A DNA stretch of 37,558 bases from a virus (IMGVR_UViG_3300023220_001050:1-37558); one strand, 5' to 3'. Counted from the stretch's first letter, positions 4,644 through 33,560 are shown. Numbers and translations are program-made. The notes: a model not told the origin generated them from the letters alone.

Positions 4644-5501
4644 CTAGCTCGTTGTGATCTTGCTAATAGCTTCAGCTCGAAGCTGTCTGATAGCAAGTCT
4701 TTGCGTTATGACGGTTCCTTGCATGTCGTTAGTAGGCAAGTTGAAACCCTCAACGGTCATTGGTCTCTTCTCAGCGATGACGTAAGCCCACATCTTATCA
4801 GTAACGTAAGCTGTGGTCGTGGTCATGCCGGCGTTTGTAGAGACGCGCAAGACGTTCATACCGTAGATGGTACCGAGGAATCCTCTGGTAAGCATCTCTG
4901 TGTTCCCAACCTTGTTTGCCTCGACGAATGTGTCGATGTTACGCAAGTCGTTAAGGACCTCATTACCCACCAACAAAGTAGTAGGTGTGTAATCCTCATC
5001 CTCAAGGTTCTGCATAGCGGTCGTCAGGTTAGGGATGGTTATAGCAGCCCCACCAGCAACAGTCGTGTTTGCGTTGTCTAAAGCATCACTAATCACGAGA
5101 CTGTTCTCGTTCTCCGCGATACGCTTACCCGCGACGCGCACGTTCCGCTCAAGAAGAGGCCATTTAGCATCTTCCATAAGCTCCCTAGTGATACGGATAG
5201 CAACACCGTACTTCTTAGGTTTAAGGTTGAAACTTGTGTATTCTGTCTGGTCCAAGGGGATTTCTGCTCCCTCACCAACTTCCCGAACGGTCATGGTTCG
5301 AGGAGTTTCCAGATCGACATCGATACTGCTTCCTGGAATCATACCAGGACCGAAAAACATAGCGGCCTCGCTACGAGGAATCAATACTTTGTCTACTTCA
5401 GGCACGAGGGTGTCCATGATCTTTCGAGGGATCAGTAACTGGCCTTCGACGCCTATGCTTGTTTGTAAAAGCTCTTGTACATTTTTTAATGCTTGTGTCA
5501 T
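4644..5501 (-). CDS. Major capsid protein, HK97 fold
   Basis: 285 aa; 'LLIP', 'VGEGAEIP', 'KKYGVAIRITRELMEDA', 'GTIYGMNV' are HK97-type MCP motifs; follows protease and decoration genes. Confidence 0.9.
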   Translation of the reverse strand: MTQALKNVQELLQTSIGVEGQLLIPRKIMDTLVPEVDKVLIPRSEAAMFFGPGMIPGSSIDVDLETPRTMTVREVGEGAEIPLDQTEYTSFNLKPKKYGVAIRITRELMEDAKWPLLERNVRVAGKRIAENENSLVISDALDNANTTVAGGAAITIPNLTTAMQNLEDEDYTPTTLLVGNEVLNDLRNIDTFVEANKVGNTEMLTRGFLGTIYGMNVLRVSTNAGMTTTTAYVTDKMWAYVIAEKRPMTVEGFNLPTNDMQGTVITQRLAIRQLRAEAISKITTS

Positions 5502-6903: not shown

Positions 6904-6936
6904 TGTATTTATAACCGACGGAAAATTATATAATCA
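6904..6936 (-). promoter_or_regulatory. Putative late promoter: ATTATATAAT palindrome plus TATAAATA box
   Basis: 28/33 identical to 12737-12769; upstream of the protease/MCP operon. Confidence 0.7.
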
Positions 6937-8655
6937 GCCTATGAAGAATCTAGCAATGGCGTTCATCCAGATAGTGCTCGCGGAAGGGACGTTCTCTATA
7001 TTGGAAACGTTCACGGTGGTGTTGATAGTGAAATTCCCAGTACCCACAAAGCTCAAGTTCCCCACACCGATATCGCAAGGGGTATTGATAAAACAAAGAT
7101 CCGTCATGGACACCACCCAATTAGTATCCAAACCAGGACAATCACAACCAACAATAGTCAAATTATTACTACAGATCTGTGTCCCATCCCCGTCTATAGC
7201 GGTAGGCGTCACGCAAGCATCCCACACCTCACCAGTAACGGTCTCCTGCTCGGAAACAAAACTGGTCTTGTTCTGGAAAAGAGCAAGGACTTGTGCAGAA
7301 CTAAGAGACCTATTGTACATCCTGACATCATCTATACGACCATCAAAAAACTGGGAAGTACCCCCGCCCGTACTACCAATAAACGTATCCGTATTCCCAG
7401 CAACATACTTAAGCGTGCCAGCAGCGATAGTTCCGTTAAGCACACCATTAACGTAGATACTCATATTCGTACCGTTAAACGTTGCGGCGATATGAGTCCA
7501 CGTATTCAACAAATCGCTGGAAGTAAAACCGCTATTAAGATCTCTATTCGCACCATCAAACAATCTCGTACCGAGATTCGCACCATTAAAAAAGATCATG
7601 AAAATGTTCTGATCACCATGAGTCACGATCCGTCTGTCCGAAATCGCTGAATCGATAAAGAACCATGCGGCCAATGTCCCATGTTGACTGATGTTAAGAC
7701 TTCCAGTAGCGCTACCCACAGCTATATGGTCTCCGGCAACGCTAAAATTGTAAGCGCCAAACCCGTCAAAACCGCCAACAGGTAAGAATGTAGCGTTCAC
7801 GACGGAGCCATTAGTGCTAAATGATGAGTAGTCTTTTGTGGAATTGGACGAGTTTATTGTGTTGTTTTCGAAAGGCATATTCAGAACGGCAATGCTAAAC
7901 CCGCCAACTCTGAAATCGGTAATGTTGTTTATTGGGTCGCCATCAGCATCGGCAACACCGAGAGGGAAAGCGGTCAAGTTCTCGGAAGTCGCGTTCGTGC
8001 CAAGAGTCGAGTTAAGATCCACTCCTGTCATGGTAGGTGGTGGGTCGAATAGTCTGAATTGAAATACTTCAAGATCGGAACTTAATTTGTACTGGGCGCT
8101 GAGGCTGTCGCCGCCGTAAGGCCAACCAACCCACGCCCACCTGTAGCCCGGGTTTAGTTCTACTTTCATGTTACGACCGAAGTTTAGTTCTGTTTCTCCT
8201 GTTAGTTTGCGCTTAGGCCCCGTCTCCACAAGGTCGTCTACTGTGTAACGCAAGAAGTATCCTGTTCCGTTCACCACCGTCTTCTTATGAGAGATAGGGA
8301 ACAACTCGATATCTGTATTGTAAGGGTTGAATACCCACTCATCATAAACAACCGGGCCTCTTTGGTAGGGCGTCTTCATAACAGCGCGTATCTCGCCACC
8401 GTCTTCCAACCCGTACCACTGGATCGCTACGTTCCGCTTATCCCGGTTAATGATACGCGAACCATCAAAAAGCCTACTCTCCTCTCTCCCGCTAACAACC
8501 CACAACCAATGATAATCGCTATGCGGCACGTAAAAAGTAGAACCATCCACGTCTAGACGCATACGAGCCTCATCCGCGAACTGAACATAAAAAATCGAAC
8601 CGCTAACTATGAAAAGAGTCAACAATCCTAAGGCTATCTCTTTCTCATACCTCAT
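6934..8655 (-). CDS. Membrane-anchored/exported LamG (concanavalin-like) domain glycoprotein
   Basis: N-terminal hydrophobic helix; LamG motifs 'WTHIAATFNGTNMSIYVNG' and 'FFDGRIDDVRMYNRSLS'; about 22 N-X-S/T sequons counted by eye. Confidence 0.85.
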   Translation of the reverse strand: MRYEKEIALGLLTLFIVSGSIFYVQFADEARMRLDVDGSTFYVPHSDYHWLWVVSGREESRLFDGSRIINRDKRNVAIQWYGLEDGGEIRAVMKTPYQRGPVVYDEWVFNPYNTDIELFPISHKKTVVNGTGYFLRYTVDDLVETGPKRKLTGETELNFGRNMKVELNPGYRWAWVGWPYGGDSLSAQYKLSSDLEVFQFRLFDPPPTMTGVDLNSTLGTNATSENLTAFPLGVADADGDPINNITDFRVGGFSIAVLNMPFENNTINSSNSTKDYSSFSTNGSVVNATFLPVGGFDGFGAYNFSVAGDHIAVGSATGSLNISQHGTLAAWFFIDSAISDRRIVTHGDQNIFMIFFNGANLGTRLFDGANRDLNSGFTSSDLLNTWTHIAATFNGTNMSIYVNGVLNGTIAAGTLKYVAGNTDTFIGSTGGGTSQFFDGRIDDVRMYNRSLSSAQVLALFQNKTSFVSEQETVTGEVWDACVTPTAIDGDGTQICSNNLTIVGCDCPGLDTNWVVSMTDLCFINTPCDIGVGNLSFVGTGNFTINTTVNVSNIENVPSASTIWMNAIARFFIG

Positions 8656-20917: not shown

Positions 20918-21031
20918 ATGGTAAAAACAATAGCGATAAGTGATGAACTATGGAAAAAACTCAAAATAAAAGCAGCACACCAAGAAAAAACTATCAGAGA
21001 AATAGTGGAAGAAAAATGCCAAAACACGTAA
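20918..21031 (+). CDS. Ribbon-helix-helix DNA-binding protein, 37 aa (not in ORF track)
   Basis: MVKTIAISDELWKKLKIKAAHQEKTIREIVEEKCQNT, a typical RHH pattern; leaderless start 24 nt after the TATA box. Confidence 0.75.
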   Translation: MVKTIAISDELWKKLKIKAAHQEKTIREIVEEKCQNT

Positions 21032-21086
21032 TCGTATACCGCGGAAAACAAGTAGGATTAGTTTCGGAGGACTTCTACAGATAAGA

Positions 21087-21410: not shown

Positions 21411-21679
21411 GATACATAATAGACAAATTCTGGAAACCACAACCCGAACCGCCAGACGACGCTCTAAACCTCATAGGAGTGGTCGCAGAAGTGCGGGAAG
21501 AAGCCTGGGAGAACTACTCCCAGTTCAGAGAGATGCGCGCCGGTATAGAGACCGCCACGCCAGAACAAACCGCGCGTCTGGATTACGAACAGGGGAAGTT
21601 CGCGGCGCAATACGAAACAGCGGGCAGAATCCTGGCAAGAGTAGTACAGTACAGAATAGACAAATGGAAAGAAGAATAA
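21404..21679 (+). CDS. Hypothetical helical protein
   Basis: 91 aa; AGGTGA RBS; overlaps the upstream stop. Confidence 0.6.
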   Translation: MLRYIIDKFWKPQPEPPDDALNLIGVVAEVREEAWENYSQFREMRAGIETATPEQTARLDYEQGKFAAQYETAGRILARVVQYRIDKWKEE

Positions 21680-21720
21680 TGAGATGGAATTAGATAAATA
21701 GAAAGAGGAGTAAATAGACT

Positions 21721-21981
21721 ATGAAAGAATTACCAGTAGTACAAAAAGAAGAGGAGGCTAGACCTTCTAATGTAGACATAATGGCGCAGACGCTCGCCGG
21801 CAGGTGCGAGACCGCGCTACCAGAAACCTCGTTCGACTACGCCAGACCGACGGACGACGGCGGGTCATACTGTTGGCTGAGCAGGCAGTACGATTTCGAA
21901 TGCAGATACCTTTCACCAGAACAGACAGAGGTCAGTTTCAATGATGGTATGAGTGGTATGTATAACCGATGCGAAAAGTAA
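21721..21981 (+). CDS. Hypothetical 4-Cys protein
   Basis: 86 aa, GAGGAG RBS. Confidence 0.6.
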   Translation: MKELPVVQKEEEARPSNVDIMAQTLAGRCETALPETSFDYARPTDDGGSYCWLSRQYDFECRYLSPEQTEVSFNDGMSGMYNRCEK

Positions 21982-22643
21982 GGCGGGCAGCCTTAGGTCT
22001 TACACTGGTGGTGGGTGCCGCTTTCAACACGCATTGCACAGTCCGCCCTAAAATCGAGTGGGAGAATCAGGAGATGGCTATAGCAGAAGGAAGAATACTC
22101 GTTGACGCGAGGTTTGAAGGAGAGAGTATTAGTTTGGATGCCGTGATGTCCGACTTGGCGCAGGTTCCTAGTTACGTGGTGGCTGTGGGTAACCGTCGTA
22201 GCAGAGTGGTGGTTTTCAGCGGCGAGGTGACTGATCAGCCCGAGGCGGCTCATCTTAAGGGGCAGTATCACCTGACGGCCGGCTTGTACGATAAGGTTTC
22301 GGGGCTTTACCTTAGGGATGAGCGGATGGCTTTTATTCATTTGACGCATAATGGTGGTAGTCCTTCGACCCCTTTGCATGAGTATGGTCACTTGATCGAT
22401 CATGCTTTGGATTACCCTAGTGAGGATGCGGATTTCGTGGGGCTTTGGGAGGTTTCGAGGCGTAAGACTTTTTTGAGGATGCAGATAATGCGTGAGCACG
22501 CCGCTCGCGATAGTGGTGAGTTCTTTGCTGATTGTTTTTCTGCTTATTATCTTTCTCAGACTTCGGAGTGGGCTCTTAAGAGGGATTTCGAGGAGGCTCA
22601 CAAGTACATGGAGAAGTTCGATGAGGAGATGAGCGACAGGTGA
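21969..22643 (+). CDS. Exported HEXXH zinc metallopeptidase (anthrax lethal factor/Pro-Pro endopeptidase-like domain)
   Basis: Basic plus hydrophobic N-terminus ending in Cys; 'LHEYGHLID' and 'GEFFADCFSAYY'. Confidence 0.75.
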   Translation: MRKVRRAALGLTLVVGAAFNTHCTVRPKIEWENQEMAIAEGRILVDARFEGESISLDAVMSDLAQVPSYVVAVGNRRSRVVVFSGEVTDQPEAAHLKGQYHLTAGLYDKVSGLYLRDERMAFIHLTHNGGSPSTPLHEYGHLIDHALDYPSEDADFVGLWEVSRRKTFLRMQIMREHAARDSGEFFADCFSAYYLSQTSEWALKRDFEEAHKYMEKFDEEMSDR

Positions 22644-22879
22644 TCGAAGAAAATGGCAGGGTTTGTTTGGGTGATGTGTTGAGTCTTGACCAGATCGTTG
22701 AAAAGGTGGGGCCTATTGAGGGTTTGAGTATGGGCGGTCTGATTTACAGGGCGGTTTTGGAGGAGGGTGTGCGTGATGAGATCTACGTTTTTGAGAGTTT
22801 CGGTGTTGATCATTACAAGGTAGCTCTCGTGATGAAAAACTTTTACGGGGTGGAAGGTGGAACTACTCATCCCTGGTGA
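22640..22879 (+). CDS. Hypothetical protein
   Basis: 79 aa, GTGA overlap with the upstream gene. Confidence 0.55.
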   Translation: MIEENGRVCLGDVLSLDQIVEKVGPIEGLSMGGLIYRAVLEEGVRDEIYVFESFGVDHYKVALVMKNFYGVEGGTTHPW

Positions 22880-23159
22880 TTGGGACCTGGATGACTTAGC
22901 TGACGATATTATTATATTAGAAAAGGGCACTAAGATAACTAAAGGTGCGTTACAACGTTTGGGTATAGTGCATAGCCATATGGATCGTTACGGTGTGCGG
23001 GTTTACGAGTGGGATAACACGGAGATCTACGGCCTCACTTTCAAGGGGGATGTGGGCACTATCGTTGTGTCGTACGCCGCGGGTCGCAGGTTGGAGGATG
23101 ACGTGTTCGATGCGTTGAAACGGAACATAGTATGGTTACAATACAGGAGGGGTTTATGA
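22857..23159 (+). CDS. Hypothetical protein
   Basis: 100 aa, coupled to neighbours. Confidence 0.55.
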   Translation: MELLIPGDWDLDDLADDIIILEKGTKITKGALQRLGIVHSHMDRYGVRVYEWDNTEIYGLTFKGDVGTIVVSYAAGRRLEDDVFDALKRNIVWLQYRRGL

Positions 23160-23776
23160 TGGATGAGATGAATAGAAGAACTTTGTTGAAGGTTGGCGTT
23201 GCTGGTTTGGCGGGGTTGGCTTTGGGTTGCGGTGATAGTAGCCAGGATCGTAAGTGGCGATCACTAGGCCCACTAGTAGGTATGGATACGTATGTGGAAC
23301 ATCAGAAGTTCACCAGGCAGGAAGAGCGTTGGATCAGGGAGGCTTCCATTGAGCATTTTAACGCGTTCGGGAGTAGCAATTTCGTTTATCAGACCCTCGC
23401 GCAGCAGGGGACCAATCTTGCGTACACTGCGCGTGGCGCTTCTATGTATTACGGTTCTCTCCCTACTAAGGATACGAGGCGGGTGTTTTTTCATAAGGAT
23501 GACAGGATTGATGGTCCGCACATGAATGGCGTTCTGGGTTATATTGATCAGATAGATTTCGATGTGCACGTAGTGGCGGACGAGGGAGATGGTAAGTTTA
23601 CGACTCCGTTCCTCTACACGGCTTTGATTAGGAGTTTCGGGACGCATGATAACTGGCACGACTCGGGGCCTCTGCAGTATAATGGGAACCTTGTGGGTCC
23701 GGATTTCTGGAAGCAAGTGAGCGATAACCAGGAAGGCGTGAATAAGCGGATCAAGGCGTTGCCACGCAGGCCATGA
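23156..23776 (+). CDS. Twin-arginine signal lipoprotein
   Basis: 'MNRRTLLKVGVAGLAGLALGC': Tat motif plus lipobox; GGAGG RBS. Confidence 0.7.
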   Translation: MMDEMNRRTLLKVGVAGLAGLALGCGDSSQDRKWRSLGPLVGMDTYVEHQKFTRQEERWIREASIEHFNAFGSSNFVYQTLAQQGTNLAYTARGASMYYGSLPTKDTRRVFFHKDDRIDGPHMNGVLGYIDQIDFDVHVVADEGDGKFTTPFLYTALIRSFGTHDNWHDSGPLQYNGNLVGPDFWKQVSDNQEGVNKRIKALPRRP

Positions 23777-23869: not shown

Positions 23870-24112
23870 ATGATTCCGCCGCTTGAGAAGTGTTTGGTAG
23901 AAGGTTTGAGTTACCGCAGGGCGCGGCTTGAGAGTAGTGGTTTGGAGGATACTGGTTATATCAAGAAGAGGGATGTGCACGTCTTCACGGGGCTGCGTAT
24001 GCGTGTGGAGGCTAGGTGCGTTGATGAGCGTAGGCAGCTGTACCACGTTGTTGATATTACTTATTTTAGGCCTGTGCTACGATTACTTGAGGGTGGAAAG
24101 GGAACCGATTAA
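23870..24112 (+). CDS. Hypothetical protein
   Basis: 80 aa, last gene of the plus-strand island. Confidence 0.5.
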   Translation: MIPPLEKCLVEGLSYRRARLESSGLEDTGYIKKRDVHVFTGLRMRVEARCVDERRQLYHVVDITYFRPVLRLLEGGKGTD

Positions 24113-24709
24113 TTCTAAAATCTTTAATTGTTCTTTTTCTTTTTTCATGGCCAGTTTATGTATGATGTTATGGCAAGAATAACAAATAATTATTAGATTC
24201 TTTTCATTATTGATTGATCTATCGCCATTTATATGATGAACTATTAATTTATTTTTTTGATTTTCTTCGCAGATTTCGCATTTGTTTTCTCTTATGGCAA
24301 ATATCGCTTTTCTATAAACCCATCTCCCATCAATATATCTTGGATTGTTTTTCCCTTTTGTATCAACTCTTATTATAGTTTCGATTGATCTTCTGATATT
24401 ATCAGGGTGGTTTGCTTTACATTTATTAGAACAGAATTTTCTTCTTCTTGCTTGCCATTTTTGAATGTATATTTCTTTTTTGCAAGTAAGGCACTTTTTC
24501 CATATACCTGTCTTTGGCTTTTTAGCGTGAACTATATTGTTGTTGTTTATTGCTGCGCATTTTTTACTGCAATATTTTCTTTTTGCTGATTTGTATGCTG
24601 TGAATCCTTTTTTGCAATATCTGCAATTATGATTTGTTTGTGGTAAGGAAACCATTCTGGTGTTGGTTTTATTCTGAATCCGTGTTGTTTTAGTTTGTTT
24701 TTCCACCAT
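24083..24709 (-). CDS. HNH endonuclease with Zn-finger repeats (homing-type)
   Basis: Two CxxC..F/I....KY/FCSxxC repeats, 'GKNNPRYIDG', 'CEIC...VHHINGDRSINNEKNLIIICYSCHNIIH'; AT-rich. Confidence 0.85.
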   Translation of the reverse strand: MVEKQTKTTRIQNKTNTRMVSLPQTNHNCRYCKKGFTAYKSAKRKYCSKKCAAINNNNIVHAKKPKTGIWKKCLTCKKEIYIQKWQARRRKFCSNKCKANHPDNIRRSIETIIRVDTKGKNNPRYIDGRWVYRKAIFAIRENKCEICEENQKNKLIVHHINGDRSINNEKNLIIICYSCHNIIHKLAMKKEKEQLKILELIGSLSTLK

Positions 24710-25857
24710 TCTTCTTCTTCACATATGAGATGTGTGGGGTCTTTATAAAGGTTAGGGTCACCAACGAACGGGATCGAGAATAGGAACTGTATTGATATGT
24801 TTTTGATATTGATCAATGCTTTGTCCAAGTCCTCGTAACGTAGGTGCTCAAGCAAGTCATAGCAAATTACTAGGTCTTGTGGGTCTTCATCGAGTTCCAG
24901 GATATCCCCCACATGGATATTTGTTTTATATGGATTACGTTTAACTATCCAATCGTCCTTATCAATTCCCTTTGCGCGGATACCTATCTGGCTGGCCGCG
25001 TATACACGTTGGCCGGCACCGCAGCCCAAAAACAGAGCATTCTTCGGGTTGAACAACTTCTTCATAGCTATGACGTCCTGGTAGTGTTTGGCCTCAAGAG
25101 CCATTCGGGTGTGGAAATATTGCCGACTCCTAAGGTTCTCCAAGTGGAACTTTTTCAAGATGACGCCTGGTAGGTCTGCCGGGTTTATTTGCTGTGTTGG
25201 GTATCCTCCCATGACGTGAGCGTCCTTCCACTTCTTGAGGAAGCTCGGGGTGTGGAGCTGTTGTATCTTCATATCTCTTTCGTACTTCTCCGCTATCTTG
25301 TGCAGGTGCTTGACGTAGCCGAAGTGGAAGATCCGGACGTCTTCTATCTCTGCGAGTTTGAACTCTTTCTTGTTCTTCAGTATGGCGTGGTTAACTCCCT
25401 CGAAACAGAACAGGTCTTTGTCGTTGCGTACGAGGCGGCCGGCGTGCCAATGCTTTTTCACCATGGCGTCTTCCTCCGCTAGGTGGTTAATCAAATGGTG
25501 ACTACGTATATTATATGCATCAAAGTTATATGTCTGTAGTGTTTTCTTTAATTGGGCTGCGTTATCTGACATCACTTCATCGCCATCTAGAAACAGTACG
25601 AATTCTTGGGTGGCGAGTTCGAAAGCGTAGCTTTTCTGCTCTGTGCCGGTAGTCCAGGTCCTGGTTTCGATATTGGTTTTTGGATGGTCTGCGAGTGTTT
25701 CTTTGATGATTTCTTCTGTGCCGTCCTTACTACGTGGGTCCATGACTATGACTATCTCGTCGGCCACGTCTTTGATTGAGAGGAGGCTTTCGCGGATGTA
25801 TTCTTTCTCGTCACGAACGATGTAGGCAACGCTAAGAGTTGGTGTTTTCTTTGACAT
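24547..25857 (-). CDS. GT2 glycosyltransferase fused to a class I SAM methyltransferase domain
   Basis: 'LSVAYIVRDE', 'FLDGDE', 'HFGY'; C-terminal 'LGCGAG', 'DLLEHL', 'DPTH'. Confidence 0.85.
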   Translation of the reverse strand: MSKKTPTLSVAYIVRDEKEYIRESLLSIKDVADEIVIVMDPRSKDGTEEIIKETLADHPKTNIETRTWTTGTEQKSYAFELATQEFVLFLDGDEVMSDNAAQLKKTLQTYNFDAYNIRSHHLINHLAEEDAMVKKHWHAGRLVRNDKDLFCFEGVNHAILKNKKEFKLAEIEDVRIFHFGYVKHLHKIAEKYERDMKIQQLHTPSFLKKWKDAHVMGGYPTQQINPADLPGVILKKFHLENLRSRQYFHTRMALEAKHYQDVIAMKKLFNPKNALFLGCGAGQRVYAASQIGIRAKGIDKDDWIVKRNPYKTNIHVGDILELDEDPQDLVICYDLLEHLRYEDLDKALINIKNISIQFLFSIPFVGDPNLYKDPTHLICEEEEWWKNKLKQHGFRIKPTPEWFPYHKQIIIADIAKKDSQHTNQQKENIAVKNAQQ

Positions 25858-26027: not shown

Positions 26028-26450
26028 TTATTTCCATTTTTGGTATGTTCTTTCGTAAGTCGTGAACGGTTTGACATTAGTAAGCGGCGTGAGCACGGTT
26101 CCTTTCTTGATCGTCACACCGCAACCAATAACGCAACCTGTCCCGATGAATACTCCGTCTTCGATGACGACATCCGCACTAACGGGTTCGTGTCCCGTGA
26201 CGTATTTGTTATGTCCTTTCTTGCTAAGCCGCGGCATGGATGTGTAGATGGTGACGTTCGGAGCGATCGTCACGCCCGACCCTATGATTATTCTTCCTTT
26301 CCCTACCGCTGTGAAGTTGATGGAGATGTGGGTGTCTTCGCCTATGAGCATCTCGGTGTAGACCTTTGAGCCGTCTCCCATGTCTCCAGCGCCAAGCGTG
26401 GTTACCTTCTTGAGGACTTTGACGTCGTGGAACTTAAACTGTTTTGACAT
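26028..26450 (-). CDS. Hexapeptide-repeat (LbH) acyltransferase
   Basis: 'IGSGVTIAPNVTI', 'VVIEDGVFIGTGCVIGCGVTI'. Confidence 0.85.
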   Translation of the reverse strand: MSKQFKFHDVKVLKKVTTLGAGDMGDGSKVYTEMLIGEDTHISINFTAVGKGRIIIGSGVTIAPNVTIYTSMPRLSKKGHNKYVTGHEPVSADVVIEDGVFIGTGCVIGCGVTIKKGTVLTPLTNVKPFTTYERTYQKWK

Positions 26451-27297
26451 TTTTGAACCTCTCTTTGAACTCGCCAAACGCCAGCCCTAGGCCGTATTCG
26501 AATTTGAATCCGGCGTTCATGAGCTTCTCGTTGTTGACCGCGTAGCTCGGCTGCACCTTGTTGCTCTGCAGGTGGTGTATCTTGACTTCGGGAACCCACT
26601 CCTGGATCCTCATAGCCAGCTTGTTAAGGGTTGTGTTTTCGTGCGCCACGTGGAATACGCCTTGCTCATCGCTATGAGTAAGGTAGTAGAGTGCTCGGGC
26701 CGTGTCGCGTACGTGGATCATGGGACGAGTGTTACGACCATCCCCGAAGATCTTTATAGGCTTGCCGAACAAGGCGTTGAACATGAACGTGTTCCCGACA
26801 GGGGCGTAACGCATGTTCTCAGTATAACCGTAATTCATACCGAAACGGCAAATTAAGTAGTTGTGGTGTTCTTCCTCTAACCATTTCTCCACCGCCCTCT
26901 TGCTCCCGCCATAAGCCGAAGCCGTCAAAGGAATGTCTTGTTCGTGGTGGATACGGCCTTTGCGGTTCCCGGCCCACACGTTACAAGTGCTTGCGAATAC
27001 GTATTTCTTGCTCTTTTTCGCTATCTCTATGGCTAATTCCCTGTTGATCCTATCTATTGACATCACGTTCAGACTGGCCGTGTTAGTGATGGCGGCTAAG
27101 TTGTATACCGCGTCGAAGCTTTCTATATCCCAATCCTGGTATGTTTCGAGACTCGCGACGATGTAGGTGTGTTTAGGGAGTGGCCTGGTTGGGAGTTTCA
27201 TATCGACCACGGTTACCGTGTGGTCCGAGGCGTGGTAGAGCTCCTGTAGGGCTCTTCCGATGTAGCCTTCTCCGCCTACGATGAGGATTTTTCCCAT
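26434..27297 (-). CDS. NAD-dependent epimerase/dehydratase (extended SDR)
   Basis: 'GGEGYIG', 'NLAA', 'YGGSK', 'RPMIHVRD'. Confidence 0.9.
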   Translation of the reverse strand: MGKILIVGGEGYIGRALQELYHASDHTVTVVDMKLPTRPLPKHTYIVASLETYQDWDIESFDAVYNLAAITNTASLNVMSIDRINRELAIEIAKKSKKYVFASTCNVWAGNRKGRIHHEQDIPLTASAYGGSKRAVEKWLEEEHHNYLICRFGMNYGYTENMRYAPVGNTFMFNALFGKPIKIFGDGRNTRPMIHVRDTARALYYLTHSDEQGVFHVAHENTTLNKLAMRIQEWVPEVKIHHLQSNKVQPSYAVNNEKLMNAGFKFEYGLGLAFGEFKERFKNVKTV

Positions 27298-28223
27298 TTG
27301 TTGTATGCCTCCATTGCTATTTCTGTGACTTCTCGGTAGGGGACGCCGCTCCAGCACGGTAGGTAGAACGAGGTGTTGTAGAGGTCTTCGCTCACGGGGA
27401 GGTAATCATTGCTGTTTAGGGTGTAGCGGATCTTTGTTTGCATCTTTTTTCTTAGTTCTCTGAAGATGAAGTTTCTTTGTTTTTTGTTGCCGCATTTGGC
27501 GTTGACGATTTGGTAGTTGGTAGCGGTTACTTTTTGGAATGTGAATGGGAGACGTGCTCGGTAGTAGTCGTTGATTTTCTTCTTTTTGGCGATGACTCGT
27601 TTGTAGTTCTTTATAGCTGCGAGGCCGATGACGGCGTTGGCTTCTTGCATGCGCCCAGCCCACCTGACTTCGTTTTTGAGGACGTCGTAGAGTTCCGGGT
27701 TGTTGGTGGTGATGACGCCTCCTTCTACTGCGGTGAACGTCTTAGCAAGGGCGAATGAATATACGGAGGCTTTGGCGAACGGGTTGGCTGGGATGCCGAA
27801 ACTGTGCGCGGCGTCTACGATGAATTCCCCTCTAGTAGCCATGGAGACGTTACCGAACGTGTCCATCACGATGTTCGCTTCGCTCTTACTTCGTAGGTCT
27901 TCGTTGTGCACCACCCACGTCTCTGGGTCGACATCTAGCCATACCGGGTCGAAGCCTTGGTGGATGACTGCTGCTTTGGTGCTGGGCCACGTGTAGTCGG
28001 GGACGCCGATGTTTTTCTTCCCGGCGAACACGTGCCTGGCCGCTAGGAGCAGTCCGGTCGTGCAGCTGTTGGTGGCTACCGCGTACCTGGTTTTAGAAAT
28101 CTTGGCGCACCGCTCTTCGAACTTCTCCACGTTCTCCGAGTTGGTCCACGGACCCGTTTCGAGTAAGTTTTTGACTTGCTCCGCCACATCCAAAGAAATC
28201 GAAGGCTTACAAAATGGAATCAT
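27276..28223 (-). CDS. DegT/DnrJ/EryC1/StrS sugar aminotransferase
   Basis: 'MIPF', 'NSCTTGL', 'DAAHSFG', 'SFALAK..TAVEGG'. Confidence 0.9.
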   Translation of the reverse strand: MIPFCKPSISLDVAEQVKNLLETGPWTNSENVEKFEERCAKISKTRYAVATNSCTTGLLLAARHVFAGKKNIGVPDYTWPSTKAAVIHQGFDPVWLDVDPETWVVHNEDLRSKSEANIVMDTFGNVSMATRGEFIVDAAHSFGIPANPFAKASVYSFALAKTFTAVEGGVITTNNPELYDVLKNEVRWAGRMQEANAVIGLAAIKNYKRVIAKKKKINDYYRARLPFTFQKVTATNYQIVNAKCGNKKQRNFIFRELRKKMQTKIRYTLNSNDYLPVSEDLYNTSFYLPCWSGVPYREVTEIAMEAYNKWEKSSS

Positions 28224-28225: not shown

Positions 28226-28852
28226 TTAACGTAATGTAGTCGTGTGGATTCGACATTCCCCTGCTGCGTTGTCTGTGCCTTTCCATCTGCCGCTTCTTTC
28301 GTCTTCCGTTTCGTCTTCCTCAGGGTTGCTGCACGTCTTGCAGCCCAGGCTTCTGAAGCCTTCTTGGTAGAGCGGGTTGACCGGGACGTTGTATGCGGCG
28401 AGGTAACGCCACACGTCGAGTTCGGTGAAGTCCAAGATGGGGTTGTATTTCTTGAGGCCTTGGTGGGTCTCGACGTGTTTGAAACCTTTTCTGGTCTCGC
28501 CCTCGTCTTTCCTCACTCCGGTGATGATAGTCTTCTTGTTAACCACGGCTTCTTTCATCGCTTCGACTTTGGCGTCCTGGCAGCAAAGCCCGTCTTTGGG
28601 TTGGTCGTAATTGAACTGTTCGTAATCTATACTCCATTTCTGCATGATGTCTTTCTTGAGTTGTTCTGTTTCTTCGAACTCGGTGTTGCTCATCAGGGCG
28701 AACGCTTTGATAGTCATCCTGACTCTTCTGGCGATGTCGAGGAGGACCATGCTGTCTTTCCCCCAGCTTATGGCTACGGCCGCGTTTGGGTCTTCAGCGA
28801 GTGCTTGCTTTACGAGTTCTTTTGCTTTTTCTACTTTGTCTACGAATTTCAT
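28226..28852 (-). CDS. cysH: APS/PAPS reductase family protein (CysH-like)
   Basis: 'SWGKDS', 'CCQDAKVE', 'TGVRKDE', 'NPLY..GFRSLGCKTC', 'ERSGRW', C-terminal 'ECRIH'. Confidence 0.85.
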   Translation of the reverse strand: MKFVDKVEKAKELVKQALAEDPNAAVAISWGKDSMVLLDIARRVRMTIKAFALMSNTEFEETEQLKKDIMQKWSIDYEQFNYDQPKDGLCCQDAKVEAMKEAVVNKKTIITGVRKDEGETRKGFKHVETHQGLKKYNPILDFTELDVWRYLAAYNVPVNPLYQEGFRSLGCKTCSNPEEDETEDERSGRWKGTDNAAGECRIHTTTLR

Positions 28853-28859
28853 TTCATCA

Positions 28860-30023
28860 TCACTTCCATTTAGTTTTAGGTTTTAGAACCTTTTCATTAA
28901 TATGATGCTTCCAGGGCGCCAGGTCTTTAAACATCCTCTCCACTTCTTCGAAGAAGTCATGCTTCTTCAGTCCTAGCTTCTTGAGCTTGGACGCATCCAC
29001 GTTGTAGTAATGTTTTTCTGCTTCGATGCGGGGGTTCTTTACCCTATCTATTTGGATTCCGCGAAGCCCGCTTCTCGTTGCTGCTTTCTTCACCGCCAAG
29101 GCTAACTGGTTCACGTCCCTTTGCTGCTCGCACAACTGGTTGAACACTTGGTACTCGCCCTTCTTGGGTGGGTTCTCGATGTAGAGCTCGAAGCACTTAA
29201 CGGCGTCTCTTATGTTGATGAGGCCTCTTTTCTGCGTTCCTCCCCCGTAAACGGTGAGAGGGTGTTTGACCATGGCTTGGACAACGAAACGATTCAGAAC
29301 AGTGCCGAACGCCTCATCGTAATCGAACCGGCTAAGGAGGTTTGGGTTCTTCTCGCTCTCCTCGGTCGTCACCCCGTACACGATACCTTGCATCATGTCC
29401 GTCGCTCGAAGTTTCCATATCTTGCAGGCGAACGCTGTGTGTTGGCTTTCCGAAACTTTAGCCCAATGGTAGAAACTTCCCGCTTGACGCGGAAATGGAA
29501 GCACATCCTTTCTACCTCTGAATTCTACTTCGAAAAAACCCTCAGGTATATCTATGTTTGGAGTGCCGTATTCCCCCATGGTTCCCATCTTGATGAGGTG
29601 GGCGTCTGGGCAGTGCTTTTTCATAGCCCATAGGAGTTCGAGATTGATCATGACGTTGTTACGAGTGGTGTATACCGCGTTGTCGGCGGAAGCCATACTG
29701 TAAGGAGCTGAGGGTATCTGTGCGAGGTTTATGATGACGTCTGGTTTGTGTTCTTGTAGGATGCGGTTGAGGATTCTTGGTTTGGATAAGTCGAAGTGTA
29801 GGTATTTGATGTTGCTACGCATGAAAGTATTTTCATATGCGAAAATACGTGCTTCCATTGGGAGGATTGGTGTGAGGCTGTCGCTTTCCCATTCCGCCAC
29901 GAGCCTGCGCCTGGTCCCGTCGTCTACTCCGATGATGAGGCCGTCGTTGCGGACGCCTAGGTGCATGGCGAGGTTCCAGCCGATGTAGCCATCGACTCCT
30001 AGGATCAGTATCTTCTTATTCAT
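28860..30023 (-). CDS. sqdB: UDP-sulfoquinovose synthase (SqdB/SQD1/Agl3 family)
   Basis: 'GVDGYIG', 'PSAPYSM', 'KMGTMGEYGTPNIDIPEG', 'SFYHWAK', 'QGIVYG', 'RFDYDEAFGTVLNRF', 'NPRIEAEKHYY'. Confidence 0.92.
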   Translation of the reverse strand: MNKKILILGVDGYIGWNLAMHLGVRNDGLIIGVDDGTRRRLVAEWESDSLTPILPMEARIFAYENTFMRSNIKYLHFDLSKPRILNRILQEHKPDVIINLAQIPSAPYSMASADNAVYTTRNNVMINLELLWAMKKHCPDAHLIKMGTMGEYGTPNIDIPEGFFEVEFRGRKDVLPFPRQAGSFYHWAKVSESQHTAFACKIWKLRATDMMQGIVYGVTTEESEKNPNLLSRFDYDEAFGTVLNRFVVQAMVKHPLTVYGGGTQKRGLINIRDAVKCFELYIENPPKKGEYQVFNQLCEQQRDVNQLALAVKKAATRSGLRGIQIDRVKNPRIEAEKHYYNVDASKLKKLGLKKHDFFEEVERMFKDLAPWKHHINEKVLKPKTKWK

Positions 30024-31095
30024 TTATTTCCTCTAGTGCTTTGGTGAGTTTCTGGGCGGCTTTCCTCCAGGTGTATTCTTCTGCTTTCTCCCTAGCTTTG
30101 AGGGCTTTAGCGGCTACTTCTTCTCTGTTTTCGAACGCTCGGCGCATAGCTTTACGTAGCTCGGCGTTGTTTGGCGTGGCCCATTTGATCCCTTCGTATG
30201 CTAGTTCGTTTTTGACTTCTTCTAATTTGTATGGGATGAGCCAACCGTTCTCTTCGTTTACGAAGTCTGTTTGGCCTCCGAAGTCGGTTGCGATGACTGG
30301 CAGGCCGCAACTCATAGCCTCCAAGCAAGGCAGGTTGAAAGCCTCAGCTTTGGTAGGGGAGACGAACACGTCACCTCGGTAGAACGATGGCATCTTCTTA
30401 TAGTCCACGTTGTCCAGGGAGATATGGATCTTTGGCCGGTCTTCAGGAAGTTTGAGTTTGTTCATTTCCACTTGGAGGTTCCATCCAGGGGGGCAGTAAG
30501 CGGGGTTGATCTTGACTCGGAGCTGGACTGTTTCGTCTTTCCCGAATTCTTCCGCGAAGGCCTTGAATAGGTATTGTATCCCTCCTCGGTCGTGGATGCC
30601 TTTGGCCCAGCCTTTGTTGGCTACGAACGTGAATGGCTGTCCTTCTTTCTTTTCTTGTACTTTGAACAGGGCTGTGTCGACACCGTGAGGCACGACCACT
30701 ATCTTAAGATCTTTATCTAATGCATGAATAGCTCGTTTGGTGTGTTCACTAGGAGCCACGACCAAGTCAGCTTTATTGAGATGAGGAAGGAAATGTTTAG
30801 GTATCGTGTCGCCTTCCCACACGCAACACCCAACGAACTTCTTGTGTGGTTCGACCATGCCTGCTGGCCACCAATGCGGTTGCGCTATCATGAAGGTGAC
30901 GCCATATGGGTAACGTGTTTTCGTGATAGCGGCAAACTCCGCGTCGTTAGCTAAAGCTTCGAAGCCGGGCTGTACCGGGATGTCAAGATAGATGTCGCTG
31001 TTGTTCTCCCATAGAGCGTTGAAGAGTGATCTGCTATGCCTCCCGTAGCCGCTATGGCCGAAGAAGTCCGTTCCTACTAAGTTTATCTCTACCAT
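30016..31095 (-). CDS. GT4 (GT-B) glycosyltransferase
   Basis: 'SGYG', 'VVPHGVD', 'EAFNLPCLEAMSCGLPVI'. Confidence 0.9.
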   Translation of the reverse strand: MVEINLVGTDFFGHSGYGRHSRSLFNALWENNSDIYLDIPVQPGFEALANDAEFAAITKTRYPYGVTFMIAQPHWWPAGMVEPHKKFVGCCVWEGDTIPKHFLPHLNKADLVVAPSEHTKRAIHALDKDLKIVVVPHGVDTALFKVQEKKEGQPFTFVANKGWAKGIHDRGGIQYLFKAFAEEFGKDETVQLRVKINPAYCPPGWNLQVEMNKLKLPEDRPKIHISLDNVDYKKMPSFYRGDVFVSPTKAEAFNLPCLEAMSCGLPVIATDFGGQTDFVNEENGWLIPYKLEEVKNELAYEGIKWATPNNAELRKAMRRAFENREEVAAKALKAREKAEEYTWRKAAQKLTKALEEINE

Positions 31096-32013
31096 TTACA
31101 TCTCCTTGCTGTATATGCAATTAGTCTCTTTTTCCAAGCCATCAAGTTTTCCTTCATCGCCTATGCCGAGCTTCTTATTGTAATCCTGGATGAAGTCACC
31201 GACTTCTTTGTATTTCTCTTTCACCCACCTGTTGAGCGCTATCTGGTTCATCTTGCTTTGGTCACCCGCGTCGGGGTAGCTACGCTCACCACCGCTAGGA
31301 GTCCTGAAGTGGAGCGCCTCAGCCCCGGTGTGTACTCCTATTTTGAACCCTGCGAGGATGGCTCTGAATGAGAAGAATTGTTCTTCACGGAAACCGTGAC
31401 CGGTCATCCACGTCTCGTACTTGACTTTCTCACATACTCCTTTTGTCATGAGTGCTGCGCTTCTAAAATGGTGTGTTGGGATTACCTCGCTCTCGATGTA
31501 GGTGTGGCCGCAATCATCACCATTCACGACGAAACGCCCATCGCCATCAAGCACGACACGGTTGATCACGGGCTTGACGAAACGCGTCTCGCGAGGAGCA
31601 TCCGCGTTACCGAGATTAGGGGTGGTTCCAGAGACGATGTCATACCCTTCCTTCAATGCCAGAAGAAGTAATCTGAGGTAATCAACCTCGAGAACGGTAT
31701 CGTCATCTACTCGTAAAACGCACTCTCCCCTCCCGTTCGTCACCACGTGATCGGTGACGTATTGCCTAGCCCTCGCAACCCCTATGCTCTTCTCCATTCT
31801 GAGGATATCCACCCGGTGACCCTCAAGTTTGAGACGCATAACGAGTTGTTGAATGTAATTATGGCTGCCTACTGGTTGACGGCTCCCATCATCTAAGATG
31901 AACACGTCGAATAATTGGTGAGTCTGTGTGCGCAGACTCTGCAGGAGCAGGGCGAGCTCGGTGGGCCTGTCCCGCGTGCAGATAGTCACGTCTATAAAGT
32001 TATCTTTTTCCAT
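31096..32013 (-). CDS. GT2 (GT-A) glycosyltransferase
   Basis: 'ICTRDRP', 'DDGS', 'RVDDD', 'REE'. Confidence 0.88.
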   Translation of the reverse strand: MEKDNFIDVTICTRDRPTELALLLQSLRTQTHQLFDVFILDDGSRQPVGSHNYIQQLVMRLKLEGHRVDILRMEKSIGVARARQYVTDHVVTNGRGECVLRVDDDTVLEVDYLRLLLLALKEGYDIVSGTTPNLGNADAPRETRFVKPVINRVVLDGDGRFVVNGDDCGHTYIESEVIPTHHFRSAALMTKGVCEKVKYETWMTGHGFREEQFFSFRAILAGFKIGVHTGAEALHFRTPSGGERSYPDAGDQSKMNQIALNRWVKEKYKEVGDFIQDYNKKLGIGDEGKLDGLEKETNCIYSKEM

Positions 32014-32356
32014 TGATTTCCTCATAATGTTCTATATTATGACAGCTCTTACATAATGTTTCCAAATTAGAAAAATCATTATTTTTCCTATTTCTATCTT
32101 TGTGATGTAAAACTAGGAATCTATCTGAATCACATCTTTCACATGCATCTTTTTTAAATGATTTAATATCTGTAGAATACAATCCATGTTTTAGATTTAT
32201 ACCTTTATTCCATCCAGGGACATTTCTACATATCATAGAGCAGAATCTTCTTTTTCTTGGTCCTTCTTTTGTTTTAATAAGTTCATAACAAGTTTCGCAA
32301 TTAACAACACATTCAGGCCAGATCCTTCGTTTACTATTACTTTCTGCTATACTCAT
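32000..32356 (-). CDS. HNH endonuclease inserted in the glycosylation operon
   Basis: 'CERC...LHHKDRNRKNNDFSNLETLCKSCHNIEH', 'GWNKG'; AT-rich. Confidence 0.85.
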   Translation of the reverse strand: MSIAESNSKRRIWPECVVNCETCYELIKTKEGPRKRRFCSMICRNVPGWNKGINLKHGLYSTDIKSFKKDACERCDSDRFLVLHHKDRNRKNNDFSNLETLCKSCHNIEHYEEINGKR

Positions 32357-32357: not shown

Positions 32358-33560
32358 TCATAATTCCCTCAAAAACTTTTCCCACATCGGCACAACTATC
32401 TCCCAGCTATAGTTTCTAAGAACTTTATTACGGCCCGTTTTGCCGAGGTGTTCTCTCGTCTCGGGCTCCTTGTAAAGCTTGTTAAGAGCTGCCACACATG
32501 CTTTGATGTTCATGATCGCCCTCTCAACGACCCATGAACCCGTGATCTCTGCGATGGCCGGTACGGGTAGACCGCAAACACCATCATCAAGCAATAACTC
32601 TTTCGTGGTGGTGTACTCGGTAGCTACGACCGGGATTTGGCACCCTAAGGCCTCTATTATAGGAATGCCAAAACCCTCGCCGCTCGTTGTTAGGAGAAAG
32701 ATATCCATCGCGTTATACACCTTGCACATGTCCTTGTAATCCAAGCCCTCGAAGTATCGTATATCGCTAAAGAACACCCTGTTCTGCAGGTTGTGCCTGG
32801 AGATGAGGAATCTGATGTCGAAGATGGCCGCGCCATCGAACGGGTCACAATGCATGTAAAGCACGGCTTCCGGTTTGTCTTTACAGAACTCTGCGAAAGC
32901 CTTAACGGTACGGTCAAGCATCTTACGGCCCTGATTCCTGGCTACGGTGCCGACGACGAACCGTCCTGCGAGTGCTCCTGTGACTTTCGTCCCGGCCACG
33001 GTTTTGACAGTCATGTTTTGCCGTATGAGTTCTTTCTCTTCAGGCCCGACTGGGTGGTAAAGGGCTGTGTCGATAGCGTGAGGGATGTAATGGGTGTCCA
33101 AGCCGTGCACTTCTTTGGCTTGCTTCTGGGCGAACTTGCTCATAGCGACCGCCCTCGTGACGTATTTGAGGATTTGATCGCAGCCTTGTGGTAGTCCTCC
33201 TCCTCCGTCTGAGGGGAAGTAGAAGAACGTTTTTGCTGGTGAGAAGTTGAGATCGAGAAGCCAGGGGTAAAGCATGAAGGTGTCTAGGAGTATGCCGAAG
33301 TAGTGGGGTTTGTGTTTTTGTACTCTTGCTTGGAGGACGTCTTTGTTGTATTGTTCCCGCCCGTTCCCGTAGAGCCAGAAGTCGAGTTTGGTGCCGTCCG
33401 CTAGGGTGAGTCCTGGTGGTAGTGGTTGTCCGACGTAGTTGTGGGCGTACGCTATACAATCATAATTTTTAGATAAGCCGTTGAGGACGTTGCGCGTGAT
33501 GGTACCATACCCCGTGCAGGTAAGAGGGGAATCGCTGAGCCAACATAGCTTTTTTCTCAT
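32358..33560 (-). CDS. GT4 (GT-B) glycosyltransferase
   Basis: 'SDSP..TGYG', 'VARNQGRK', 'EGFGIPIIEA'. Confidence 0.9.
   Translation of the reverse strand: MRKKLCWLSDSPLTCTGYGTITRNVLNGLSKNYDCIAYAHNYVGQPLPPGLTLADGTKLDFWLYGNGREQYNKDVLQARVQKHKPHYFGILLDTFMLYPWLLDLNFSPAKTFFYFPSDGGGGLPQGCDQILKYVTRAVAMSKFAQKQAKEVHGLDTHYIPHAIDTALYHPVGPEEKELIRQNMTVKTVAGTKVTGALAGRFVVGTVARNQGRKMLDRTVKAFAEFCKDKPEAVLYMHCDPFDGAAIFDIRFLISRHNLQNRVFFSDIRYFEGLDYKDMCKVYNAMDIFLLTTSGEGFGIPIIEALGCQIPVVATEYTTTKELLLDDGVCGLPVPAIAEITGSWVVERAIMNIKACVAALNKLYKEPETREHLGKTGRNKVLRNYSWEIVVPMWEKFLREL

What the first reader, a model, noticed from the sequence alone, without database searches (positions are those of the whole stretch)
28226..30023. 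Virus-encoded sulfoquinovose pathway: APS/PAPS reductase next to UDP-sulfoquinovose synthase
Seen: a full-motif SqdB/Agl3 gene only 7 nt upstream of a CysH-like gene that keeps the CC...CxxC cysteines of Fe-S APS-type reductases. Known: SqdB condenses UDP-glucose with sulfite, CysH releases sulfite, and Sulfolobus Agl3 supplies sulfoquinovose for N-glycans. Inference: the pair is a sulfite-supply plus sulfo-sugar module for glycosylation, which would give a concrete role to a viral cysH. No ATP sulfurylase is visible, so APS/PAPS must come from the host. The C-terminal motif is ECRIH rather than the usual ECG(L/I)H.
Basis: partly seen in the sequence, partly recalled or inferred. Interest (0 to 1): 0.82.

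Follow-up and report, generated by a model that had tools for sequence, protein, structure and literature searches.

The report
Viral sulfite-fed sulfo-sugar gene cassette
A tailed virus carries, side by side, a gene for a likely sulfite-releasing enzyme and a gene predicted to attach sulfite to a sugar; the same pair occurs in four other viruses, so here this often-reported viral 'sulfur metabolism' gene likely helps build a sulfonated sugar for the virus's own sugar-transfer enzymes rather than feeding the host.

Summary
In detail: an SqdB/SQD1-family gene (30023-28860) lies 7 nt upstream of a CysH-family gene (28852-28226) that keeps CC, CxxC, RxGRW and the catalytic Cys, in a tailed virus. 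'Full-motif' is wrong: two residues essential in Sulfolobus Agl3 are replaced (His95 to Asn, Arg101 to Pro), as in a large untested branch of the family. The pair is adjacent in four other viruses, in both orders and on different tree branches, and cellular relatives of this CysH often sit beside other sulfite users. In this virus family four glycosyltransferases are conserved, while sqdB-cysH-degT-SDR-acetyltransferase is a swap-in cassette (0 of 57 related loci). Best reading (0.7): CysH turns host APS into sulfite, SqdB makes a C6-sulfonated nucleotide sugar (UDP-sulfoquinovose or an amino/N-acetyl variant, about even), and viral transferases use it, on the virion more likely than on the host surface. 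No activity, host or acceptor is shown; most viral sqdB genes have no cysH. Viral sqdB and cysH are each published separately; I found no paper on the viral pair. This scan noted the pair before in cellular genomes, and sqdB alone in a phage.

The parts
28860..30023 (-). SqdB/SQD1-family nucleotide-sugar sulfonating enzyme, Pro/Asn variant (387 aa)
   Evidence: NF041015 465.8 bits, cut-off 575; SQD1 E 1.3e-103; TM 0.96 to 1qrr; Asn99/Pro104
28226..28852 (-). CysH-family, Fe-S type APS/PAPS reductase (208 aa)
   Evidence: PF01507; NF002537 139.2 bits, cut-off 154; CC, CxxC, RxGRW, E-C-x-I-H invariant in 84 relatives; folds like 2oq2/2goy
27276..28223 (-). DegT/DnrJ sugar aminotransferase; likely start 2 nt after the cysH stop (longest ORF starts at 28286)
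   Evidence: PF01041 E 6e-34; start sites
26434..27297 (-). Second nucleotide-sugar SDR (epimerase/dehydratase family), recurrent partner of Pro-type SqdB
   Evidence: PF01370; its 4 matches among fetched loci are all genes directly behind an sqdB; relative present in 28 of 30 haloarchaeal sqdB loci
26028..26450 (-). Short hexapeptide-repeat acyltransferase
   Evidence: PF00132; weak acetyltransferase models
30016..31095 (-). GT4 glycosyltransferase, family core; overlaps the sqdB start
   Evidence: PF00534; relative in 52 of 57 family loci
31096..32025 (-). GT2 glycosyltransferase, family core
   Evidence: PF00535; query, 56 of 57 loci over threshold; nearest Atlas clusters 96-100% viral
32358..33560 (-). 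GT4 glycosyltransferase, family core, first gene of the block
   Evidence: PF00534; 31 of 57 loci
24547..25857 (-). GT2-methyltransferase fusion, family core, last gene of the block
   Evidence: PF00535 plus methyltransferase; 35 of 57 loci
4644..5501 (-). HK97-type major capsid protein ending in ITTS; candidate acceptor (inferred)
   Evidence: PF25209/PF05065; 106 of 120 capsid sequences (its own included) end in Ser or Thr; no control set
6934..8655 (-). LamG-domain protein with an N-terminal hydrophobic segment and many N-x-S/T sequons; alternative acceptor and host clue (inferred)
   Evidence: PF13385; 22 sequons against 7.4 expected, 0 of 1000 shuffles, 1 of 39 proteins tested

Best explanation
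The two genes likely form a sulfite-supply and sulfo-sugar unit: the CysH protein is predicted to reduce host-made APS to sulfite with host thioredoxin, and the SqdB protein would add that sulfite to C6 of a nucleotide sugar, which the virus's own glycosyltransferases would likely transfer to a glycan. Shown: gene anatomy, motifs, folds, recurrence of the pair, the cassette's place among four conserved glycosyltransferases, and the lack of ATP sulfurylase and thioredoxin. Inferred: both activities; APS rather than PAPS (from the Fe-S cysteines); the product (UDP-sulfoquinovose about 0.45, an amino or N-acyl sulfo-sugar further shaped by the SDR, DegT and acyltransferase about 0.45); the acceptor (virion protein about 0.5, host surface or an exported viral protein about 0.3, DNA about 0.1); an archaeal host (about 0.65).
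For: Pair adjacent in viral L015 (cysH-sqdB, 0 nt), L022/L023/L085 (one virus; DUF2061 between), L082 (4-nt overlap; sqdB cut by the contig end) and L083 (sqdB-cysH, 4-nt overlap, with APS kinase and sulfotransferase); paired proteins are only 38-56% identical and paired SqdBs lie on separate branches. All 8 of the other viral CysH proteins checked keep CC, RS(L/I)GCxxC, RxGRW and ECGIH; the 3 paired ones scored pass the NF002537 cut-off. Of 80 cellular relatives, 9 lie within 4 kb of cysteate synthase, 18 of a sulfite reductase, 21 of cysteine synthase; 32 have at least one such neighbour. SqdB keeps GxxGxxG, TMGEY, Ser183, Tyr185-His186-Lys189. GT core in 31-56 of 57 family loci, cassette genes in 0 of 57; relatives hold other sugar cassettes at the same site. 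No sulfite reductase or cysteine synthase among 31 window proteins scanned.
Against: His95 and Arg101, whose alanine mutants inactivate Agl3 (PMC4388408), are Asn and Pro; I saw no assay of a Pro-type enzyme. Only 3 of 64 viral sqdB clusters have cysH nearby, so SqdB does not need its own CysH. 0 of 80 cellular CysH relatives have sqdB within 8 kb and 44 of 80 have neither a sulfur nor a glycan neighbour by my test. 4 of 8 viral clade loci lack sqdB; two of these (L086, L087) have no glycan cluster. This CysH is the odd member: long branch (0.8), Arg for a Gly kept in 83 of 84 relatives, under the NCBIfam cut-offs. The fold alone does not exclude FAD synthase (TM 0.69 against 0.75-0.79).
Confidence: 0.7

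Rival explanations
1. The SqdB variant does not sulfonate: it works only as a 5,6-dehydratase or epimerase, and cysH serves something else in the glycan block.
For: H95A and R101A Agl3 are inactive, and Agl3 makes a 5,6-ene without sulfite (PMC4388408). CysH of this clade also sits in glycan clusters without sqdB (L001, L084, L174, L176, L180). 43 of 80 viral sqdB loci lie in a replication module without cysH.
Against: Pro is kept in 13 of 13 clade members, 41 of 42 other top relatives and 30 of 30 haloarchaeal loci examined, so it is a lineage state and not decay; Pro-type genes lie next to cysH, sat or cysDN (L262, L290, L264, L386).
Confidence: 0.1
2. The unit is real by descent, but this copy of CysH is decaying or misread (Gly to Arg beside the catalytic Cys), so sulfite comes from the host.
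For: Gly in 83 of 84 relatives, none with Arg; the codon CGA is one base from a Gly codon; long branch; lowest family score of the paired copies scored.
Against: Every position invariant in the 85-row alignment is by definition kept here, including all five cysteines; one relative has Gln there; reading frame intact and tightly packed; model pLDDT 92.6.
Confidence: 0.1
3. CysH is a classical auxiliary metabolic gene that boosts host cysteine and methionine synthesis; its place beside sqdB is incidental.
For: This is the published reading of viral PAPS reductase (PMC7785012; PMC10914622). 21 of 80 cellular relatives lie by cysteine synthase and 18 by sulfite reductase.
Against: Touching or overlapping reading frames in both orders in unrelated viruses; none of the 8 viral clade loci shows a sulfite reductase or cysteine synthase in its gene list; 6 of 8 lie in glycan blocks or beside sqdB.
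Confidence: 0.07
4. The CysH-like protein is a non-reducing member of the PP-loop clan (FAD synthase, DndC, BrxP, CysD).
For: FAD synthases rank 7th-8th in the fold search; BrxP model matches residues 106-174.
Against: Sequence E-values 1e-16 to reductases against 1e-4 to FAD synthases; the C-terminal RxGRW...EC.IH segment aligns only with reductases; no DndC model hit.
Confidence: 0.03

Closest known systems
Arabidopsis SQD1 / Sulfolobus acidocaldarius Agl3 / Sinorhizobium SqdB (UDP-sulfoquinovose synthases)
   Same: Fold (TM 0.96, 44% identity to 1qrr), NAD motif, TMGEY, Ser-x-Tyr-His-x-x-Lys; Agl3 also feeds glycoprotein glycans.
   Different: All three have His and Arg in the 95-101 loop; the viral protein has Asn and Pro and lies in a separate 16-member clade (support 99) outside the Arg clade (support 98). 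It is viral, has its own CysH, and comes with SDR, DegT and acyltransferase genes.
Fe-S APS reductases of Pseudomonas aeruginosa (2goy) and Mycobacterium (7lhr); yeast PAPS reductase (2oq2)
   Same: CC and CxxC cluster ligands, RxGRW, C-terminal catalytic Cys.
   Different: Short (208 aa), 22-26% identical, ECRIH for ECG(L/I)H, and linked to a sugar enzyme, not to sulfite reductase.
Viral PAPS reductase and viral UDP-sulfoquinovose synthase reported as auxiliary metabolic genes (Mara et al. 2020, PMC7785012; phage cysH/cysC in PMC10914622)
   Same: Both genes already seen in viral contigs.
   Different: There they are on different contigs and read as help for host metabolism. GenBank phage 'cysH' matches are distant (best long match 28% identical) and 27 of 30 listed alignments end before the catalytic segment; no close SqdB among 50,697 phage records.
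Mycobacteriophage virion glycosylation (Che8 and kin; Freeman et al. 2023, seen only as cited in PMC12619734 and PMC11256854)
   Same: A block of phage glycosyltransferases; glycans reported at the C-termini of capsid and tail tube; this family's capsid ends in a conserved Ser/Thr run.
   Different: Here the block carries its own swap-in sugar-synthesis genes and a sulfonated sugar; no glycan has been observed.
Haloarchaeal Pro-type SqdB plus downstream SDR
   Same: Pro at the Arg101 site in 30 of 30 loci, with a relative of the window's SDR in 28 of 30.
   Different: His95 kept; no cysH within the roughly 1.5 kb flanks; product untested (sulfoquinovosamine in Haloarcula hispanica is recalled, from no call).

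Membership tests
UDP-sulfoquinovose synthase (SQD1/Agl3) | SQD1 fold and GxxGxxG NAD motif | tested here: met
   GVDGYIG; TM 0.96, rmsd 1.3
UDP-sulfoquinovose synthase (SQD1/Agl3) | [ST]MG...YxxxK signature with Met, Glu, Tyr, Ser and His of the active site | tested here: met
   T148 M149 G150 E151 Y152, S183, Y185 H186 K189; signature from PMC8987622
UDP-sulfoquinovose synthase (SQD1/Agl3) | His95 and Arg101, essential in Agl3 | tested here: not met
   Asn99 and Pro104; mutants in PMC4388408
UDP-sulfoquinovose synthase (SQD1/Agl3) | NCBIfam NF041015 cut-off (575 bits) | tested here: not met
   465.8 bits; the cut-off is narrow: an Arg-type protein scored 461 and 1 of 14 control genomes passed
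UDP-sulfoquinovose synthase (SQD1/Agl3) | UDP-glucose plus sulfite gives UDP-sulfoquinovose | not testable with these tools
   needs an assay
Fe-S APS reductase (CysH) | CC and CxxC cluster ligands | tested here: met
   C90 C91, C171 C174; invariant in 84 relatives; aligned with 2goy and 7lhr
Fe-S APS reductase (CysH) | RxGRW and C-terminal catalytic cysteine | tested here: met
   R186-W190, C200
Fe-S APS reductase (CysH) | Exact ECG(L/I)H motif | tested here: not met
   ECRIH; Gly in 83 of 84 relatives
Fe-S APS reductase (CysH) | NCBIfam cut-offs (NF002537 154; TIGR02055 235) | tested here: inconclusive
   139.2 and 114.3 for this protein; three paired viral relatives pass NF002537 at 157-188
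Fe-S APS reductase (CysH) | Thioredoxin-dependent sulfite release; APS against PAPS | not testable with these tools
   needs an assay
FAD synthase / DndC / BrxP / CysD | Best sequence match to these families, without the reductase C-terminal segment | tested here: not met
SQDG sulfolipid pathway (SqdB with SqdX or SqdD) | Linked sulfolipid synthase | tested here: inconclusive
   Two GT4s and two GT2s are present, none named SqdX by NCBIfam; they are conserved in relatives that lack sqdB; no direct comparison with SqdX was run
Phage virion glycosylation system (Che8 type) | Conserved block of virus-encoded glycosyltransferases | tested here: met
Phage virion glycosylation system (Che8 type) | Glycan on capsid or tail protein | not testable with these tools
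   only a conserved Ser/Thr C-terminus, without a control set

The most novel reading that the evidence does not exclude
A large family of probably archaeal tailed viruses varies its particle coat by swapping sugar cassettes into a fixed four-transferase locus; this member taps host APS with its own reductase and uses an Asn/Pro-type SqdB with an SDR, aminotransferase and acyltransferase to make an undescribed N-acylated amino sulfo-sugar that caps a glycan on the capsid's C-terminal serine: a C-sulfonated virion.
Probability: 0.2. Interest if true: 0.82.

Novelty: new variant of a known kind. Interest (0 to 1): 0.6.

Why it matters
cysH is among the most reported viral 'sulfur' genes (167 in 7,334 freshwater phage genomes, PMC10914622) and is usually read as help for host assimilation, without a test. 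This clade gives a concrete, two-enzyme, assayable alternative: sulfite for the virus's own glycan. It also points at the untested Pro-type branch of SqdB, which covers most viral and haloarchaeal homologues seen here and may use another sugar. The scope is limited: a small CysH clade, known chemistry, and a pairing that this scan has already noted in cells.

Tried and rejected
Single-sequence scans of viral contigs found 0 SqdB and 1 CysH locus; alignments were needed. No locus of the window's own SqdB clade (P0002-P0014, 54-60% identical, all unnamed) could be fetched: best viral and metagenome loci were 51% or less, so I do not know whether cysH goes with that clade; no longest-contig length was shared between the listed SqdB and CysH hits when compared by eye, a weak negative. 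Host: capsid found in 0 of 301 genomes of the phylum of G006 (a Pacearchaeota genome) and 0 of 251 of the phylum of G007 (an Uhrbacteria genome). Sequencing runs: none was listed, no RNA holder listed, so the Arg codon could not be checked against reads. Promoter and terminator counts equal chance (12 against 13.2; 14 against 13.0). Base composition gives no sign of recent import: cassette genes 0.50-0.52 GC, three of the core transferases 0.50-0.51. The first CysH tree lacked the window protein because my ORF picker took the overlapping + strand frame; rebuilt by FastTree, where its place is unsure; no clade test was run on either tree. No complex prediction was obtained; I do not claim that the proteins bind. 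The N-acetyl argument from the GalE/WbpP pocket is weak: WbpP Gly102-Ser103-Val104 is a signature for acetylated substrates (PMC12820599), but its register with Arg101 is recalled, and both a UDP-GlcNAc and a UDP-glucose epimerase show a small residue there. Searches 'sulfoquinovosamine' and two on the 'hexagonal box' returned 0 papers. DNA as acceptor is ranked low: no base hydroxymethylase or dioxygenase among the 31 window proteins scanned; relatives were not searched for one.

Full report
1. Observation. The window is one whole 37,558-nt virus record, linear, rated 62% complete. Terminase, portal, Mu F, HK97-type capsid, D5 primase and tail genes are present. On the minus strand a 387-aa ORF (30023-28860) is followed after 7 nt by a 208-aa ORF (28852-28226). 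The first matches SQD1 at E 1.3e-103 and its model (pLDDT 94.4) overlays 1qrr at TM 0.96. The second matches PF01507, APS/PAPS reductases (E 2.5e-16 to 5e-6) better than FAD synthases (1e-4 to 6e-4); its model (pLDDT 92.6) ranks PAPS and APS reductase first, FAD synthase 7th. Both score below their NCBIfam cut-offs (465.8 of 575; 139.2 of 154).

2. In Agl3, H95A and R101A are inactive (PMC4388408, parts 1-2 of 7 and passages read). SQD1, Agl3 and Sinorhizobium SqdB have His and Arg there. The viral protein has Asn99 and Pro104. Pro is in 13 of 13 clade members and 41 of 42 further top relatives, Asn in 11 of 13 and 6 of 42; these sets were ranked by likeness to the query and so lean to Pro. 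In a FastTree of 122 rows (172 locus proteins thinned at 75% identity, plus 23 protein hits), Arg-type proteins form one clade of 10 (support 98) and the window protein lies in a clade of 16 (support 99) with unnamed metagenomic proteins. Haloarchaea: 75 of 201 genomes of the class searched have a homologue; the 30 best loci are all Pro-type and 28 carry a 26-32% relative of the window's second SDR. So the gene is a sound member of a large untested branch; the chemistry is likely kept, the sugar is open.

3. CysH. All five cysteines, RxGRW and E-C-x-I-H are invariant in 84 relatives; Gly201 is Arg here, Gln in one relative, Gly in 83. The best named relatives are from Patescibacteria, Babeliales and Chlamydiae, then Asgard archaea, Thermoplasmata and Dehalococcoidia (best 80 of 278). 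Within 4 kb, 9 of 80 have cysteate synthase, 7 sulfopyruvate decarboxylase, 18 a sulfite reductase, 21 cysteine synthase (32 have at least one); 5 have nonulosonate-type or DegT genes; 44 have neither by my thresholds, among them most of the closest ones. None has sqdB within 8 kb. Three different sulfite users beside one family argue that it makes sulfite; the many lone copies in host-dependent bacteria are unexplained.

4. Recurrence. From the CysH side, 8 of 80 viral loci kept (of 109) are full-length matches at 37-47%; 4 of these 8 (L022 and L085, one virus; L082; L083) have sqdB within 250 nt; none of the other 72 has one. L015 came from the sqdB side. That is four other viruses: L015 cysH-sqdB with no gap, L082 cysH-sqdB with a 4-nt overlap (sqdB cut after 95 codons by the contig end), L083 sqdB-cysH with a 4-nt overlap, L022 with DUF2061 between. 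L015 and L083 share several neighbours and are kin, yet differ in order and in SqdB branch. Identities among paired copies are 38-49% (CysH) and 42-56% (SqdB). With 144 sqdB stretches in 2.9 million contigs, my arithmetic gives about 0.0004 expected co-occurrences in 8 loci; a stricter comparison is 0 of 57 glycosyltransferase-block viruses holding either gene. From the sqdB side the pair is rare: 3 of 64 clusters at 90% identity (94 ORFs), and 43 of the 80 best loci lie in a replication module without cysH. In metagenome contigs 4 of 80 loci have both (L262, L290, L308 adjacent; L264 1.2 kb off, with Sat); that scan covered 4 of 64 parts.

5. Context. The block reads GT4, HNH, GT2, GT4, sqdB, cysH, degT, SDR, acyltransferase, GT2-methyltransferase (33560-24547), with overlaps or gaps of a few bases. 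In five related records chosen by capsid, the transferases recur wherever the region is covered (G002, G003, G004 all four; G001 two; G005 ends before it), with none of sqdB, cysH, degT or the acyltransferase. In 57 loci found with the GT2 alignment (60 returned; 3 distant ones dropped; some are the same virus and many flanks are cut), GT2 passed in 56, GT4a in 52, GT2-methyltransferase in 35, GT4b in 31, and the five cassette genes in 0. Relatives hold other cassettes there: GDP-mannose-dehydratase-type SDRs with TPP E1 subunits and a cupin, B12 radical SAM enzymes, UDP-glucose dehydrogenase. So the transferases are the fixed part and the sugar supply is exchanged. The block's place varies (after the tail, before the terminase, or on the other strand), so its timing cannot be read from position.

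6. Inputs. Sat, CysD over cut-off and thioredoxin were found in 0 of 5 pair-bearing records, three of them with terminal repeats; controls rang in 5, 4 and 13 of 14 genomes. Terminase matched in 4 of 5. APS and reductant would therefore be the host's. L083 also has an APS kinase and a sulfotransferase. That plant APS reductase can feed SQD1 in vitro (Sanda et al. 2001) is recalled; I saw only citations of it.

7. Acceptor and host. The capsid ends in ITTS; 106 of 120 family capsid sequences end in Ser or Thr and 118 have two or more in the last three residues. Mycobacteriophage glycans are reported at capsid and tail-tube C-termini (passages of PMC12619734 and PMC11256854; the primary paper is not held). 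There is no control set, and the capsids of two other pair-bearing viruses end in Ala (L022) and Ser (L082). A rival acceptor is the exported LamG protein with 22 sequons against 7.4 expected (0 of 1000 shuffles); such proteins appear in only 3 of 34 capsid loci, so they are not part of the core. The sequons, GGTGA-type ribosome sites seen by eye (their archaeal bias is recalled), one capsid relative labelled Thaumarchaeota and an Aenigmatarchaeota label on an SqdB relative suggest an archaeal host; the CysH labels point to Patescibacteria, and the provirus searches were empty.

8. Prior knowledge. Mara et al. 2020 report a viral UDP-sulfoquinovose synthase and viral PAPS reductases on different contigs (passages and supplement passages; two supplementary PDFs had no text and may bear on gene neighbours). 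COBRA reports 167 phage cysH (passages). A 2026 review of sulfoquinovose cycling shows no viral sqdB in the passages found (PMC13436972). Passages were also read in PMC8987622, PMC12820599, PMC12171764, PMC11407970, PMC6098224 and PMC4245038. Searches (listings only for the rest) gave no paper on a viral sqdB-cysH pair; the library lacks most subscription journals. Earlier notes of this scan describe the pair in Patescibacteria, a gammaproteobacterium and an actinobacterium, and sqdB in a T4-like phage island; in my own sample 1 of 301 genomes of the Patescibacteria-side phylum had an sqdB, on a 2.3-kb contig.

9. Verdict. Real and recurrent; works like an APS reductase feeding an SQD1-type synthase (0.7), but is not filed as a UDP-sulfoquinovose synthase because two tested residues fail. 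New variant of a known kind; interest 0.6.

Noticed in passing
L044:6063-17919 and 42 other viral loci: A large clade of viral Pro-type SqdB sits alone inside a DNA replication module (ligase, PD-(D/E)XK nuclease, AAA ATPase, dCMP deaminase, ParB-methyltransferase, UDG-fused PolA, DUF3987), mostly with no glycosyltransferase or cysH within 10 kb; role unexplained, a nucleotide or DNA modification is possible.
   Followed up: partly
window 6934-8655 and 8661-9470; L374:6099-13786: Proteins with N-terminal hydrophobic segments and excess N-x-S/T sequons (22 against 7.4; 8 against 3.9, p 0.024 uncorrected; 70 against 35 in G002) among head genes: likely exported glycoproteins of a tailed virus.
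   Followed up: partly
L376:6957-10529, L378:1520-5424, L404, L417, L420: Relatives carry split TPP E1 subunits, a cupin and GDP-mannose-dehydratase-type SDRs at the cassette site, suggesting branched-chain sugars; many carry a B12 radical SAM enzyme.
   Followed up: partly
L181, L192-L196, L198, L205, L235: Asgard and Thermoplasmata CysH relatives lie beside cysteate synthase and sulfopyruvate decarboxylase, a coenzyme M-like sulfonate route outside methanogens.
   Followed up: partly
L160-L173, L175, L179, L182, L186, L188: The closest cellular CysH relatives, in Patescibacteria, Babeliales and Chlamydiae, stand alone without sulfur or glycan neighbours; role unexplained.
   Followed up: no
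L001:7874-14870, L174, L176, L180, L084: CysH of this clade inside nonulosonate-type or other glycan clusters without sqdB; another sulfite user may be hidden there.
   Followed up: no
L083:4693-10824: One virus holds sulfotransferase, APS kinase, SqdB, CysH and DUF2061 together: both O-sulfation and C-sulfonation routes.
   Followed up: partly
L386:4095-9592, L387:2290-5403: Two genomes of the phylum of G006 have SqdB with a Cys-rich N-terminal extension between a phosphodiesterase-family gene and thioredoxin; L386 also has cysD and cysN; no cysH in the gene lists.
   Followed up: no
window 32000-32356 and 24083-24709: Two HNH-type genes of 29-30% GC inside and at the end of the 50% GC glycan block: probable mobile endonucleases.
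   Followed up: no
window 21087-23776 (+) and 19794-21087: A plus-strand island of small genes, one with an HExxH motif matching Pfam PF07737 and one with a TAT-like signal, next to an AT-rich, gene-poor stretch.
   Followed up: no
P0017 and P0263: An SqdB of the window's clade and a 75%-identical capsid share the same longest-contig length (79,816), hinting at a second family member with this gene; contig not seen.
   Followed up: no
G616 (L450-L453): A Thermoplasmata genome bin with four SqdB matches, two with an internal stop.
   Followed up: no
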